Sequence record: NC_001901.1
Source: Escherichia phage N15
Direction: 5' to 3' (one strand)
Length of the DNA stretch: 46,375 bases
The notes under the pieces were generated by a model, which saw nothing but the letters and a program-made list of their open reading frames with translations, did not search any database and was not told where the DNA came from. The position numbers and the translations under genes were made by a program. Positions 32,801 to 45,579 of the stretch are shown here, one piece after another. Positions within the stretch are counted from its first letter, which is position 1. Each line of letters opens with the position of its first letter.

Positions 32801-33860
32801 TGATGTCGAATCCGGTGCGGAGGCCTGTGTTGCCTTTTCCTTCAGCTGAGGATTTGCGGTCGTTATCGAGAGCGCAAGTGATTTGCGCAGCCGGGTACAT
32901 GTTCACCAGCTGCTCGACAACGTGAATCATGTTGTTAGCGGAAACCGCAATGACTACCGCGTCAAAGCGTTTTTTCGGGTCGTTTCTGGTCGCCAGCCAG
33001 ATGGATGCCCCGGTGGCGAAACCCTCTGCAGTCGCAATTTTTTGCGCCCCCTGCAGGTCGCCAATAACAAAGCATGCACCGACGAAATCACCGTTAGTGA
33101 TGGCGCTGGTCTGGAACTTGCCACCATTCAGATCGATACGTTGCCAGCCAACAATCCGCCCGTCTTTTCTTCCGTCCAGGTGGGACAGAGGTATCGCCAT
33201 GTAAGTTGTTGGTCCACGGCTCCATTTCGCACTGTCGTGACTGGTCACGCGACGTATATCACAAGCGCCAAATACGTCACGAATTCCCTTTTTTACCGCA
33301 TAAGGCCAGGAGCCATCTTCAGCTGGCGAATGTTCCCAGGCGCGATGGAAAGCCAACCATCCAAGCAGGCGTTCCTGCTCCATCTGATTGTTTTTTAAAT
33401 CATTAACGCGTTGTTGTTCAGCTCGGAGGCGGCGTGCTTCAGCCTGGCGCTCCATGCGTGCACGTTCTTCTTCCGGCTGAGCGACCACGGTCGCACCATT
33501 CCGTTGCTGTTCACGGCGATACTCCGAAAACAGGAATGAAAAGCCACTCCAGGAGCCAGCGTCATGCGCTTTTTCAACGAAGTTAACGAAAGGATAACTG
33601 ATGCCATCCTTGCTCTGCTCAAGGCGTGAATAGATTTCCACACGGCCTTTAAGGCTCTTCTGCAGAGCTTCCGGGGAGGAATTATTGTAGGTGGTATAGC
33701 GCTCTACACCACCGCGCGGATTGAGCTGAATCTTATCAGCACACGCAGGCCAGTTGATACCGGCCATCTTCGCCAGCTCAGTCAGCTCATCACGTGCCGC
33801 GTCAAGCAGTGAAAACGGATCGCTGCCAAAGCGCTCCGCGTAGAATTCTTGTAAGGTCAT
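29886..33860 (-). CDS. repA: Replication protein RepA (primase / Toprim plus helicase multidomain replicase)
   Basis: 1324 aa. Toprim-like TAEGFATGASI...CALDNDRKSSAEGKGNTG. Walker A VRAGMGSGKST. Plasmid-type replicase known as the only N15 gene needed for plasmid replication. Confidence 0.95.
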   Translation of the reverse strand: MTLQEFYAERFGSDPFSLLDAARDELTELAKMAGINWPACADKIQLNPRGGVERYTTYNNSSPEALQKSLKGRVEIYSRLEQSKDGISYPFVNFVEKAHDAGSWSGFSFLFSEYRREQQRNGATVVAQPEEERARMERQAEARRLRAEQQRVNDLKNNQMEQERLLGWLAFHRAWEHSPAEDGSWPYAVKKGIRDVFGACDIRRVTSHDSAKWSRGPTTYMAIPLSHLDGRKDGRIVGWQRIDLNGGKFQTSAITNGDFVGACFVIGDLQGAQKIATAEGFATGASIWLATRNDPKKRFDAVVIAVSANNMIHVVEQLVNMYPAAQITCALDNDRKSSAEGKGNTGLRTGFDIMEKFSGVKCVYPTFEDDPELECSDFNDLHSLRGLKEVARQLTRNHLSRATDLLSITLNKLRTLPRLNRRTFAKELLRAVDIGMLTCPVPNSPKELMRLFSSTLRDMGIAEIYNGTVKDHITRRLNRKCRAAQTSRSFSERITNPNLRPSHITYKRFETSRMTDEVMTYAAQLQGIVIVRAGMGSGKSTGLLRPLMLQSTRGVSVAHRVSLIGGLHEMMTEGKGAKADILHYQDPGYQEMAPYANKLTICINSILKGCWQPLMRQHDFFGFDEATQGLRAILAGRAMENPVGVFNTLIDALARTEEHAIMVDADANDLLVDLAELAMKRREELGLPAWLQIHVIELPVDVRNRETNKPIRVFYTEKNRIMTEVIAAVQRGERIMLATDSSTFAEDVTMQLRLQFPDKKFLCVNQKNKQEKEVDDFTNQPKVMVKKYDGLIYSPSISSGVSIEEKHFHRHFGMFCGEVVPSDAIQMLRRDRTAQEYIIGFDKLRGKRETDPEKIKRAYAQALLETAGHSGLLTDVVFDGDRISLGVANSSFMQLKIKAAALEASARNDYASNMICIMHDDGYQVAPMATDALANSIGKDLRKEARELVFEQLMERHLSVDTPDQAEHDELIKKRTLSLDEQAQLVRWDIEKELQLDVDEVALKFYFDGGLKKVRLFETMQLDEITARRLDREEALIHFTYAYRVAGRWQQFVTTAMTREQADAEFQAKFPAITDYRVKSTPAVEIGMRGFYTLKSATLQQYFRDCGIDPKTLEGEADMDALKRARDNLLTPERRDLLNNVLRIGGFNTEKGKKKAPADLCIGILESMGLSSKTRRARDGDARPTMRSIDPDSVEFLMNIVEKRREAGLSIHARKVEKTTIEVDRDLDLNIDIHGNPRSKTEHVPDAPQSVIIQALEAIPVAVPEAWAENALPATEMEAVRLWPVASIARTFASLYMTEFMDLLSVREIRLLKAFLSQRQAVAI
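30141..30215. other. ori: Candidate replication origin core inside the 3' part of repA
   Basis: TTGGATC / GATCCAA inverted repeat (30141..30147, 30175..30181) flanks the AT-rich catgtatatctatattta. Several GATC sites. GGTGG-tttttt-CCACC hairpin. The N15 ori is reported to lie within the repA 3' region. Confidence 0.3.
33479..33496. promoter_or_regulatory. Centromere-like palindrome (SopB site) inside repA
   Basis: GAGCGACC-AC-GGTCGCAC, one arm mismatch relative to the other three sites. Architecture resembles F sopC TGGGACC-AC-GGTCCCA. Confidence 0.7.
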
Positions 33861-33932
33861 TTTTTAGCCTTTCCATGCGAATTAGCATTTTTTCGGGTTG
33901 AAAAAATCCGCAGGAGCAGCCACAATAAACGC

Positions 33933-34013
33933 ACTATCTTTCTGAAGGACGTATCTGCGTTATCGTGGCTACTTCCTGAAAAAGGCCCGAGTTTGCCGAC
34001 TCGGGTTTTTTTT
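33933..34013 (+). ncRNA. Candidate antisense RNA to the repA leader
   Basis: + strand promoter TTGAAA-17-CACAAT (33898..33926). Hairpin AACGCA...TGCGTT. Terminator CCCGAGT-ttgccg-ACTCGGG plus T8 (33986..34013). Confidence 0.45.
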
Positions 34014-34078
34014 CGTCTTTTTTCGGCTGCTACGGTCTGGTTCAACCCCGACAAAGTATAGATCGGATTAAACCAGAA

Positions 34079-34094
34079 TTATAGTCAGCAATAA
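34079..34094. promoter_or_regulatory. CB-type operator overlapping the -10 (TATAAT, minus strand, 34078..34083) of the putative repA promoter
   Basis: TTATAGTCAGCAATAA matches the 16-bp TTAT....ATAA operators of the cB-cro region (12/16 to TTATAGCTGGCTATAA). Confidence 0.6.
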
Positions 34095-34108
34095 ACCCTG
34101 TTATTGTA

Positions 34109-44005: not shown

Positions 44006-44029
44006 ATAGCTAAAATCAGCGGAGAGAAA

Positions 44030-44233
44030 ATGGCGAAAATCAAACTGACCCTCGAACAAATTAAATCTTTGGCTAAGTTTGCAGAGGAAGAAGGCCAGCC
44101 TGAATACACAATCTGTCATGGTCAAATCCCCGGCTTCGATAATGTTCCAGATTACAATGGTTTGATTGCGTTTTCTGGCTCTGAAGAGCATGGCGTTCTG
44201 GCTTTGGAAGATATGGAGCAGGGTGATAAGTGA
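44030..44233 (+). CDS. Hypothetical protein
   Basis: 67-aa ORF after a GGAGAG RBS. Confidence 0.55.
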   Translation: MAKIKLTLEQIKSLAKFAEEEGQPEYTICHGQIPGFDNVPDYNGLIAFSGSEEHGVLALEDMEQGDK

Positions 44234-44565
44234 TGAAAGTTTATATCGCCGGGCCAATGACAGGCCGTGAAAATTATAACCGTGCCGCTTTCAATAAAGA
44301 GGCAGACCGCCTTACCCGCCACGGTCACACAGTTCTGAACCCAGCCAGCCTTCCTGATGGTCTGGAACAGCGCGAATACATGGATATCTGTTTTGCGATG
44401 CTCCGCTGCGCTGATGCAATCATGATGCTGCCAGGCTGGCAAGCGTCGTCCGGTGCGACAGCCGAATATCACTACGCGTACAAAATGGAATTGCCAGTCT
44501 ATACGGTTCTGCATTATCCACCTGTAGCGCTTGAGAAGGAAATTGATGAGCGCCTTTTACAATGA
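44233..44565 (+). CDS. Nucleoside 2-deoxyribosyltransferase-like protein (DUF4406 family)
   Basis: MKVYIAGPMTG...NYNRAAF...VLNPA...MLPGWQASSGATAEYHYA fits the DUF4406/NDT-fold pattern. Confidence 0.7.
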   Translation: MKVYIAGPMTGRENYNRAAFNKEADRLTRHGHTVLNPASLPDGLEQREYMDICFAMLRCADAIMMLPGWQASSGATAEYHYAYKMELPVYTVLHYPPVALEKEIDERLLQ

Positions 44566-45541
44566 ATTTGAAAGATATCCCGCAACATGGCTAAGCAACC
44601 TGATCGCGAACGGTTCAATAGCAAACGGCATTGTTGATGAGCGCTCTATTGTTGATGTTGCTCCGTCAGATGTTATCAATAAAACGCAATGCCACTGGTT
44701 TGCTGGGATTGGAGTTTGGAGTTATGCGTTGCGTTTAGCTGGCTGGCCAGATAGCCGTTCTGTATGGACAGCCAGCCTGCCATGCCAGCCGTGGAGCTCT
44801 GCAGGAAAGGGAGGAAAATTTGATGACGAACGACACCTCTGGCCTGTGTTTTTCAGACTCGTTAAAGAGTGCCGCCCTCCAGTCATTTTTGGTGAGCAGG
44901 TTTCAAGCAAGGACGGCCTTGAGTGGTTCTCAGCTGTACAAACTGACCTGGAAAATGCGGGCTATGCCGTTGCAGCGCTTGATACATGCGCAGCGAGCGT
45001 CGGTGCTCCGCACATCAGACAAAGAATCTTCTGGATGGCCTACGACTACAGCCAGCAATACCAAAACGGCGATAAAGGATGTAGTGAAAATACTGGCCAG
45101 AAGAGCAGCGGGACGACAGTCGAACTTGCAGGATGTAGCAGTTCTTGCCGGATGGAATACACCGACAGCATCAGACTGCAAAGGAGGGTATCAGGGAGGG
45201 AGGATACGAAACGGGAAATTATCGACCGACCGCCTGGATGTAACATCGCAGTTGGCGGGATGGTCACCCGAAACGCTCCCGTCACTGAATTCAAACCAGA
45301 AAATCACAGCGCCCTGGGGGCCGTGCAGACTGACTCATACTGGAGAGATATTGACTGGCTCTTCTGCCAGGATGGAAAGTGGAGGCCAGTTGAACCCTCA
45401 TCATTCCCGCTGGCTGATGGGATTGCCGGTCGAGTGGGCCAGTTGCGCGCCTACGGGAACGCGATAGTCGCTCCATTAGCGGCAGCATTCATCACCTCGG
45501 CTTATCAGGCAATCCAGGACTTCGAATCCCAAAAAAAATAA
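44546..45541 (+). CDS. DNA cytosine-C5 methyltransferase-like protein (frame integrity questionable, see findings)
   Basis: Motif [10 protein letters not shown], motif [13 protein letters not shown], motif VI VIFGEQV, motif VIII-like [11 protein letters not shown]-terminal [14 protein letters not shown] 215-codon overlapping ORF (44820..45467) also carries methyltransferase-like motifs. Confidence 0.7.
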
Positions 45542-45559
45542 CATTTAGTGTTCCGCTTT

Positions 45560-45579
45560 CGTGCGACCACGGTCGCACG
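45560..45579. promoter_or_regulatory. Centromere-like palindrome (SopB site)
   Basis: CGTGCGACC-AC-GGTCGCACG with perfect 9-bp arms. Confidence 0.8.

What the first reader, a model, noticed from the sequence alone, without database searches (positions are those of the whole stretch)
33479..45579. Four dispersed SopB-type centromere palindromes far from the sopAB operon
The arms GTGCGACC-NN-GGTCGCAC occur four times: 33479..33496 (GAGCGACC-AC-GGTCGCAC, inside repA), 35930..35947 (TC centre, inside a Lar-like ORF just after Q), 41123..41142 (a perfect 20-mer, 20 bp upstream of a candidate late promoter) and 45560..45579 (upstream of the last gene). The design mirrors the F sopC unit TGGGACC-AC-GGTCCCA. 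Instead of a tandem array beside sopAB (22.1..24.3 kb), the sites are scattered over 12 kb of the other arm. Two of them abut promoter-like regions, so ParB spreading or bridging could both segregate the linear plasmid and silence lytic promoters. Dispersed centromeres are reported for N15. The promoter coupling at 41123 is what I read directly from this sequence.
Basis: partly seen in the sequence, partly recalled or inferred. Interest (0 to 1): 0.7.

Follow-up and report, generated by a model that had tools for sequence, protein, structure and literature searches.

The report
Phage N15's four known centromere sites

Summary
The window is coliphage N15 (46,375 bp). GCGACCNNGGTCGC occurs exactly four times, at 33481, 35932, 41126 and 45563, against 0.01 expected by chance. 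No further copy appears when three mismatches to the 18-mer are allowed.

The four sites and their flanks match the published oligonucleotides for the N15 centromere sites IR1 to IR4. The phiKO2 RefSeq record annotates four "putative plasmid partitioning sites" at the same relative places, one of them 19 nt upstream of its "putative late promoter".

sopA and sopB lie at 22.1-24.4 kb with no tandem sopC-type array beside them.

The sites are conserved in position across N15-like phages. Yersinia phage PY54 carries F-type palindromes (TGGGACCNNGGTCCCA) at the homologous places, again including the late promoter.

Its added idea, silencing of lytic promoters, is only partly supported:
- N15 SopB can silence a weak promoter next to an artificial 4xIR array.
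- The published work on the natural sites, going by its title, reports that Sop facilitates late gene expression.

Verdict: already known, low interest.

The parts
33479..33496 (.). IR1, a SopB-binding centromere palindrome (GAGCGACC-AC-GGTCGCAC) inside repA at codons about 122-127
   Evidence: The flanks match the published IR1 oligonucleotide. The 14-bp core is intact in 20 of 20 distinct homologous stretches of relatives that were not selected through this site.
35930..35947 (.). IR2, a SopB-binding palindrome (GTGCGACC-TC-GGTCGCAC) in the last codons of the Lar-like ORF just downstream of Q
   Evidence: The flanks match the published IR2 oligonucleotide. The equivalent place in phiKO2 is annotated as a putative partitioning site.
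41123..41142 (.). IR3, a perfect 20-bp palindrome (CGTGCGACCATGGTCGCACG) ending 19 nt upstream of the -35 hexamer of the late promoter
   Evidence: The flanks match the published IR3 oligonucleotide. The distance from the 18-mer to TTGGCA is 19-20 nt in 21 distinct family sequences.
45560..45579 (.). IR4, a SopB-binding palindrome (CGTGCGACC-AC-GGTCGCACG) in the intergenic region before the last gene
   Evidence: The flanks match the published IR4 oligonucleotide. The equivalent place in phiKO2 is annotated.
23152..24360 (-). sopA, the ParA-type partition ATPase
   Evidence: Pfam AAA_31 at 2.8e-25 and CbiA/ParA at 1.5e-14, plus a weak, sub-threshold match to the MerR HTH model near the N-terminus.
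22121..23164 (-). sopB, the ParB-type centromere-binding protein
   Evidence: Pfam SoPB_HTH at 8e-21. The closest solved structure is F SopB, 3MKY, at E = 6e-39. The DGSRRRK box is conserved in the phage SopB proteins.
41162..41190 (+). Late promoter candidate, TTGGCA-17-TATCTT
   Evidence: It is conserved in relatives. The homologous phiKO2 site is annotated 'putative late promoter'.
41228..41252 (+). Intrinsic terminator downstream of the late promoter, the presumed target of Q antitermination
   Evidence: The homologous phiKO2 feature is annotated as a terminator.
35001..35747 (+). Q antiterminator gene, whose stop lies 183 bp upstream of IR2
   Evidence: Pfam Phage_antiter_Q at 1.4e-110. 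The start is taken from the U45242 annotation mapped onto the window.
24775..24830 (.). telRL, a 56-bp palindrome that becomes the plasmid ends. It places sopAB 0.4-2.7 kb from one telomere and IR4 to IR1 at 25.6-37.7 kb from that same end.
   Evidence: The distances were computed from the coordinates.

Best explanation

A SopB dimer recognises each 16-18-bp palindrome through its helix-turn-helix domain. Each bound site nucleates a larger SopB-DNA partition complex. The SopA ATPase then positions the complex on the nucleoid, so that both daughter cells inherit the low-copy linear plasmid.

The system is the F-plasmid SopABC system in protein terms. The binding sites, however, are spread over 12 kb of the replication, immunity and late-regulatory region and do not form a tandem array beside sopB.

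IR2 lies just after the Q antiterminator gene, and IR3 lies just before the Q-dependent late promoter. These two sites additionally link the partition complex to late transcription. Published work reports this link as a positive effect on late gene expression.

Shown here: the sites, their significance, their identity to the published IRs, the cognate genes and the family-wide conservation. Taken from papers I could read: SopB focus formation and silencing on the 4xIR array. Taken from titles and memory only: plasmid stabilisation by individual sites and the mechanism of late-gene facilitation.
For: - The window is N15. The N15 records U45242 and U63085 match it at 99.5% and 99.9%.
- There are exactly four sites, against 0.01 expected.
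- The flanks of all four equal the published oligonucleotides for the 'natural IRs and flanks' of N15.
- The same paper states that N15 SopB uses IR1-4 and forms foci on a 4xIR array, and that F SopB functions only with its own site, sopC.
- sopA and sopB are present and are homologous to the F proteins.
- There is no tandem array next to sopAB.
- The F site TGGGACCACGGTCCCA differs from the N15 site at one symmetric position.
- phiKO2 annotates four partitioning sites at the same relative places.
- Relatives selected by homology keep 4-5 sites each.
- 109 of 199 sites in related viral contigs map by flank homology onto one of the four N15 positions.
- IR1 equivalents were not selected by the motif scan, and 20 of 20 have an intact core while their flanks vary at about every third base.
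- PY54 has F-type palindromes at the homologous places: in repA, in the Lar-like ORF and upstream of the late promoter. The site sequence therefore changed in concert at all positions.
- Dispersed N15 centromere sites are cited as established.
Against: Nothing found here contradicts it. There are three limits:
- The primary papers were not readable in the held library, so per-site stabilisation and incompatibility data rest on their titles and my memory. These papers are Ravin & Lane 1999, Grigoriev & Lobocka 2001 and Ravin, Rech & Lane 2008.
- No SopB occupancy map of the native prophage was found.
- The published IR1 oligonucleotide reads GTGCGACC where the window has GAGCGACC. The natural IR1 is therefore slightly imperfect and may bind more weakly.
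Confidence: 0.95

Rival explanations
1. In the lysogen, SopB spreads or bridges from IR3 (and IR4) and represses the late or lytic promoters, so the sites act mainly as silencers and only secondarily as centromeres.
For: Induced N15 SopB silences a weak promoter about 50 bp downstream of a synthetic 4xIR array. The centre of IR3 sits roughly 65 bp upstream of the likely start site. It lies directly upstream of a conserved A-rich tract and the -35 hexamer, at a spacing of 19-20 nt in 21 distinct sequences.
Against: The published study of the natural system is titled as showing that Sop facilitates late gene expression. Late genes are already held off by the terminator at 41228 until Q is made. 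The silencing assay used four clustered sites and induced SopB, not one site at native levels. IR1 and IR2 lie inside coding sequence, not at promoters. No promoter-like site was found next to IR4.
Confidence: 0.15
2. The palindromes act as RNA hairpins in transcripts, as terminators or processing sites, and not as protein-binding DNA sites.
For: The terminator scan flags IR4 as a stem-loop followed by CTTTTCC. IR4 folds as an 8-bp hairpin in RNA.
Against: The same sequence occurs in four unrelated contexts, including coding sequence on opposite strands. Across relatives the arm sequence itself is fixed, whereas an RNA stem would tolerate compensatory changes. Only the two central bases and the outermost positions vary. 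PY54 changed all sites to one other sequence that equals the F SopB site. Published data show SopB focus formation on these sites.
Confidence: 0.03
3. The four palindromes are a chance recurrence or a by-product of sequence composition.
For: A single 18-mer of this kind occurs by chance in large high-GC genomes. The genome-collection scan gave mostly single hits in Actinomycetota and similar organisms.
Against: Four copies occur in 46 kb against 0.01 expected, and 0 of 100 shuffles reach that number. The positions are conserved in relatives.
Confidence: 0.005

Closest known systems
N15 centromere sites IR1-IR4 (Ravin & Lane 1999; Grigoriev & Lobocka 2001; used in PMC7205306)
   Same: They are the same object. 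The window is N15, and all four sites with their flanks match the published IR oligonucleotides.
   Different: There is no difference of substance. The published IR1 oligonucleotide has GTGCGACC where the genome has GAGCGACC.
phiKO2 'putative plasmid partitioning sites' (RefSeq NC_005857; Casjens et al. 2004)
   Same: phiKO2 has four GTGCGACCACGGTCGCA(C/T) sites at the same relative places: in repA, after Q, 19 nt before the annotated late promoter, and before gp59.
   Different: All four phiKO2 centres are AC. The N15 centres are AC, TC, AT and AC.
F plasmid sopC
   Same: The protein family is the same. The closest solved structure to N15 SopB is F SopB, at E = 6e-39, and identity is reported as 49%. 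The palindrome design is the same, and 14 of the 16 bases of TGGGACCACGGTCCCA match.
   Different: F has 10-12 tandem 43-bp repeats directly beside sopB. N15 has four single sites 23-35 kb from sopAB on the linear plasmid and no tandem array. Position 3 and its symmetric partner are G/C in F and C/G in N15. F SopB does not use the N15 sites, whereas N15 SopB can use sopC.
Yersinia phage PY54 spyAB system
   Same: PY54 is a linear plasmid-prophage with dispersed palindromes at homologous places. They lie in repA, in the Lar-like ORF and next to the late promoter.
   Different: PY54 has eight sites, of the F-type sequence TGGGACCNNGGTCCCA. Its late-promoter site sits about 12 bp closer to the -35 hexamer.
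RK2/RP4 KorB and its dispersed OB sites; chromosomal parS sites spread around oriC
   Same: These are palindromic ParB-family sites dispersed over the replicon. In RK2 the ParB homologue also regulates promoters (my own knowledge).
   Different: KorB is a dedicated global repressor with 12 sites, placed mostly at promoters. Only IR3 of N15 is promoter-adjacent, and the reported effect is positive.

Membership tests
N15-type SopB centromere sites (IR1-IR4; type Ia ParABS) | A 16-18-bp inverted repeat, (G)TGCGACC-NN-GGTCGCA(C), identical to the published IR sequences and flanks | tested here: met
   Searches compared with Table 4 of PMC7205306.
N15-type SopB centromere sites (IR1-IR4; type Ia ParABS) | Cognate sopA (ParA ATPase) and sopB (ParB with the SopB HTH domain) on the same replicon | tested here: met
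N15-type SopB centromere sites (IR1-IR4; type Ia ParABS) | Sites conserved in number and position in related linear plasmid-prophages | tested here: met
N15-type SopB centromere sites (IR1-IR4; type Ia ParABS) | SopB binds the sites specifically | not testable with these tools
   Literature only. N15 SopB forms foci on the 4xIR array, and a hybrid protein with the F DNA-binding domain does not.
N15-type SopB centromere sites (IR1-IR4; type Ia ParABS) | Each site stabilises a plasmid in cis when SopAB is supplied, and exerts incompatibility | not testable with these tools
   The primary papers were cited but not held. Their content is from memory.
F sopC-type centromere | A tandem array of 43-bp repeats adjacent to sopB | tested here: not met
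   There is no such array in 20000-25000. The four sites are 2.4-5.2 kb apart and 9-23 kb from sopAB in the window.
F sopC-type centromere | The 16-bp site TGGGACCACGGTCCCA | tested here: not met
   The best matches in the window are the four IRs, with 2-3 mismatches each.
Intrinsic terminator (considered for IR4 only) | A GC-rich hairpin followed directly by a U-run | tested here: inconclusive
   The scan flags IR4 with the tail CTTTTCCATT. The tail is weak, and the other three identical hairpins have no T-run.

The most novel reading that the evidence does not exclude
A SopB site sits next to the Q-dependent late promoter in N15, phiKO2 and PY54, even though the site sequence switched between the N15 type and the F type. 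A second site always sits just after Q. In N15 and its close relatives the distance from IR3 to the -35 hexamer is fixed at 19-20 nt.

This could mean that SopB works at the late promoter as a position-specific architectural factor. SopB bridging of IR2 and IR3 might bring newly made Q to its loading site, or SopB bound at about -65 might contact RNA polymerase. Either would be more specific than a generic effect of the partition complex.

The functional link itself is already published. Only the mechanism and its family-wide conservation would be new.
Probability: 0.2. Interest if true: 0.4.

Novelty: already known. Interest (0 to 1): 0.12.

Why it matters
It matters little as a discovery. 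The sites, their dispersed layout, their relation to F sopC and a link to late gene expression were published between 1999 and 2008, and the sites are used as tools in later work.

It matters more as a check on the scan.

The comparative results obtained here modestly strengthen the case that the IR3 to late-promoter arrangement is functional. These are the positional conservation across the family, the concerted switch to F-type sites in PY54, and the fixed spacing between IR3 and the promoter.

Tried and rejected
- **Genome-collection scan.** The scan for the 18-mer gave mostly single matches in unrelated high-GC genomes. That is about the number expected by chance in 596 Gb, so it was uninformative. 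The exception was a 46-kb Pseudocitrobacter contig with two sites.
- **Primary papers.** PMC94163, PMC2394991 (also tried as PubMed 18359814) and PMC4998052 are not held. Text searches for 'N15, SopB, late promoter' found nothing. Papers citing the 2008 study do not describe its results.
- **ChIP-seq preprint.** A bioRxiv preprint on linear F plasmids uses N15 only as a source of TelN and gives no SopB map of N15.
- **Rfam.** It has no family at any of the four sites or at the hairpin after IR4.
- **Promoter next to IR4.**
- **RNA-hairpin and chance readings.** Both were considered and rejected. Across relatives the arm sequence is fixed and shows no compensatory changes, and the shuffles give 0.01 sites expected.
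- **Conservation counts.** My first counts were partly circular, because the relatives had been found by exact match to the motif. I repeated them on homology-selected genomes. I also repeated them on IR1 equivalents, which never match the 18-mer used for the scan.
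Full report
**Identity of the window.** The window is 46,375 bp. A megablast of 33000-46375 against phage records returned two partial records of Escherichia phage N15. U45242 (the immB region) matched at 99.5% and U63085 (repA) at 99.9%. The U45242 annotation maps onto the window as repA, cB, cro and Q. The gene content is that of a telomere phage:
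- sopA at 23152-24360(-) and sopB at 22121-23164(-)
- a 56-bp telRL palindrome at 24775-24830
- a 1324-aa repA, a CI-type repressor and a Q antiterminator

**The observation.** GCGACCNNGGTCGC occurs exactly four times, at 33481, 35932, 41126 and 45563. Dinucleotide-preserving shuffles give a mean of 0.01 matches, and none of 100 reaches four. Allowing three mismatches to the 18-mer GTGCGACCNNGGTCGCAC finds the same four sites and nothing more. The F-type pattern TGGGACCNNGGTCCCA also finds these four as its best matches.

**Context claims.** Most of these hold:
- Site 1 is in repA.
- Site 2 lies in the last codons of ORF 35653-35973, which matches the PHROG family named 'Lar-like restriction alleviation protein' at E = 7e-40.
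- Site 3 ends 19 nt before TTGGCA-17-TATCTT at 41162-41190, which is followed by a terminator at 41228.
- Site 4 lies before the last gene.

The one claim I could not reproduce is a promoter-like region next to site 4. The scan finds none in 45540-45700 on either strand.

[quoted passage not shown] The core and flanks of IR1, IR2, IR3 and IR4 in that table are the window sequences around 33479, 35930, 41124 and 45561. The only difference is GTGCGACC in the IR1 oligonucleotide against GAGCGACC in the genome.

The same paper makes four relevant statements:
- N15 SopB is 49% identical to F SopB.
- F SopB works only with its own sopC and not with IR1-4, whereas N15 SopB can also use sopC.
- N15 SopB forms foci on an array of the four IRs.
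- Induced N15 SopB silences a weak promoter about 50 bp from that array.

Another paper cites N15 as an established case of dispersed centromere-like sites. The finding is therefore the known N15 centromere.

**Relation to F.** The F site is TGGGACCACGGTCCCA and the N15 site is TGCGACCACGGTCGCA. They differ at one position and its symmetric partner. The closest solved structure to N15 SopB is F SopB, 3MKY, at E = 6e-39. Unlike F, N15 has no tandem array beside sopAB.

On the linear prophage the ends are at telRL. This places sopAB 0.4-2.7 kb from one telomere. IR4, IR3, IR2 and IR1 lie 25.6, 30.0, 35.2 and 37.7 kb from that same end (computed).

**Conservation.** The phiKO2 RefSeq record annotates four 'putative plasmid partitioning sites': in repA, after Q, 19 nt before its 'putative late promoter', and before gp59. 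Genomes chosen by homology, not by the motif, all carry the sites:

| Phage | Number of sites |
|---|---|
| phiKO2 | 4 |
| Enterobacter phage MStein-2023a | 4 |
| PhiR46_1 | 5 |
| KpLi5 | 5 |

Of the 199 sites in all loci held at that point (these stretches plus phiKO2, MStein-2023a and U45242), 109 map by flank homology onto one of the four N15 positions. Because that scan selected on the motif, I checked IR1 equivalents separately. They never match the 18-mer used for the scan, yet 20 of 20 distinct homologous stretches have an intact 14-bp core. The surrounding repA sequence varies at about every third base. The arms are fixed in sequence and do not co-vary, which fits protein recognition and not an RNA stem.

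**PY54.** Yersinia phage PY54 has no N15-type site. It has eight dispersed F-type palindromes, TGGGACCNNGGTCCCA. Four of them correspond to N15 sites:
- 31240, in repA about 380 bp from its start, as for IR1
- 34394, in the Lar-like ORF, as for IR2
- 40976, 8 nt before the -35 hexamer of the homologous late promoter, as for IR3
- 44409, which corresponds roughly to IR4

The site sequence has therefore changed in concert at all positions while the positions were kept. In the SopB HTH region, N15-type phages have E-G-(I/V)-D-R-N at residues 193-198 where F and PY54 have E-N-I-S-R-K. This is a candidate specificity determinant, but the sample is small and confounded by phylogeny.

**The late-promoter coupling.** The family alignment downstream of IR3 shows a shared series of elements:
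- a conserved A-rich tract
- the promoter TTGGCA-17-TAT(C/T)(T/G)T
- a conserved TTTTTCTAAGTTGGG stretch
- a terminator

The gap from the 18-mer to TTGGCA is 19 nt in 18 distinct sequences and 20 nt in 3. The sequence of the 5' half of that linker varies. Some relatives have two sites 47 bp apart there. The arrangement is real and conserved, and phiKO2 already annotates it.

Its functional meaning has been addressed by Ravin, Rech & Lane 2008. [quoted passage not shown] From memory, not verified here, that paper links IR2 (next to Q) and IR3 (next to the late promoter) to efficient Q-dependent late transcription. The capacity of N15 SopB to silence is nevertheless documented on an artificial array.

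**Rival readings.**
- Chance is excluded.
- An RNA hairpin or terminator role is suggested only by the scan's flag on IR4. It is contradicted by the fixed arm sequences, the four unrelated contexts and the PY54 switch.
- Silencing as a main role is possible but unsupported for the natural sites.

**Verdict.** The main interpretation is correct and already published. The regulatory extension is a reasonable idea that the literature has already examined, apparently with the opposite result. Novelty is 'already known' and interest is low.

Noticed in passing
window 45589-45665: A long hairpin lies directly after IR4 and before the last gene (ATG 45696). Its arms are TCTCATAGACATGAGCG and CGCTCATGTTTATGAGA, 43 nt apart. 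The RNA fold gives z = -6.1. Relatives keep it with one compensatory A-T to T-A change (L052, L157), and L013 has an unrelated hairpin at the same place. The two single changes (N15 itself and L054) give G-U pairs on the + strand only, which suggests an RNA element in the late transcript. There is no Rfam match.
   Followed up: partly
L031 1593/1813, L012 12431/12651, L052 8644/8825, L243 17793/18013: In several relatives the IR4 region carries two SopB sites 181-220 bp apart that bracket the structured intergenic element.
   Followed up: partly
L080 5556/5603, L011 1786/1833, L079 98/145: Some relatives have two SopB sites 47 bp apart just upstream of the late promoter. This is close to the 43-bp period of F sopC.
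   Followed up: partly
L245 (PY54) 508, 6566, 26513, 31240, 34394, 39870, 40976, 44409: PY54 has eight dispersed palindromes of the F sopC sequence TGGGACCNNGGTCCCA, several at places homologous to the N15 IRs. A one-mismatch copy at 41120-41137 lies just after the late terminator. SopB residues 194, 196 and 198 co-vary with the site type.
   Followed up: partly
L001 (U45242) at the IR2 position, window 35930-35947: The older N15 record reads GTGCGACCTCGG-CTGAC at IR2. This is probably a sequencing compression in the palindrome. It explains why that record annotates a fused 'orf QD1' where the window has two ORFs, 35653-35973 and 35984-36157.
   Followed up: partly
window 35938-35939 and 33480: The TC centre of N15 IR2 was not seen at any IR2 equivalent in other phages, which have AC, GT, GC or AT. 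The A at position 2 of IR1 is shared only with the closest relatives.
   Followed up: no
window 41143-41161: A conserved A-rich tract (AAAACGAAAAAGG) lies between IR3 and the -35 hexamer and resembles an UP element. The centre of IR3 is about 65 bp upstream of the likely start site.
   Followed up: no
window 28301-28388(-), 28414-28489(-), 19863-20048(+): Three Rfam matches pass the gathering score: C4 antisense RNA (78.8 bits), isrK (62.4 bits) and STnc100 (72.5 bits). The first two lie in the antirepressor region.
   Followed up: no
window 24374-24420: A 19-bp unit, AAAGCAAAGCAACATAAAA, is repeated 2.5 times just upstream of sopA. It lies in the sop promoter region, where SopA-binding motifs are described for N15.
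   Followed up: no
L244 (KpLi5) 3667: KpLi5 has a fifth SopB-type site in the head-gene region, far from the other four.
   Followed up: no
L157 (Pseudocitrobacter vendiensis contig, 46,169 bp): A contig of N15-like size carries two sites and the N15-type hairpin after IR4. It is probably an unannotated N15-like plasmid prophage.
   Followed up: no
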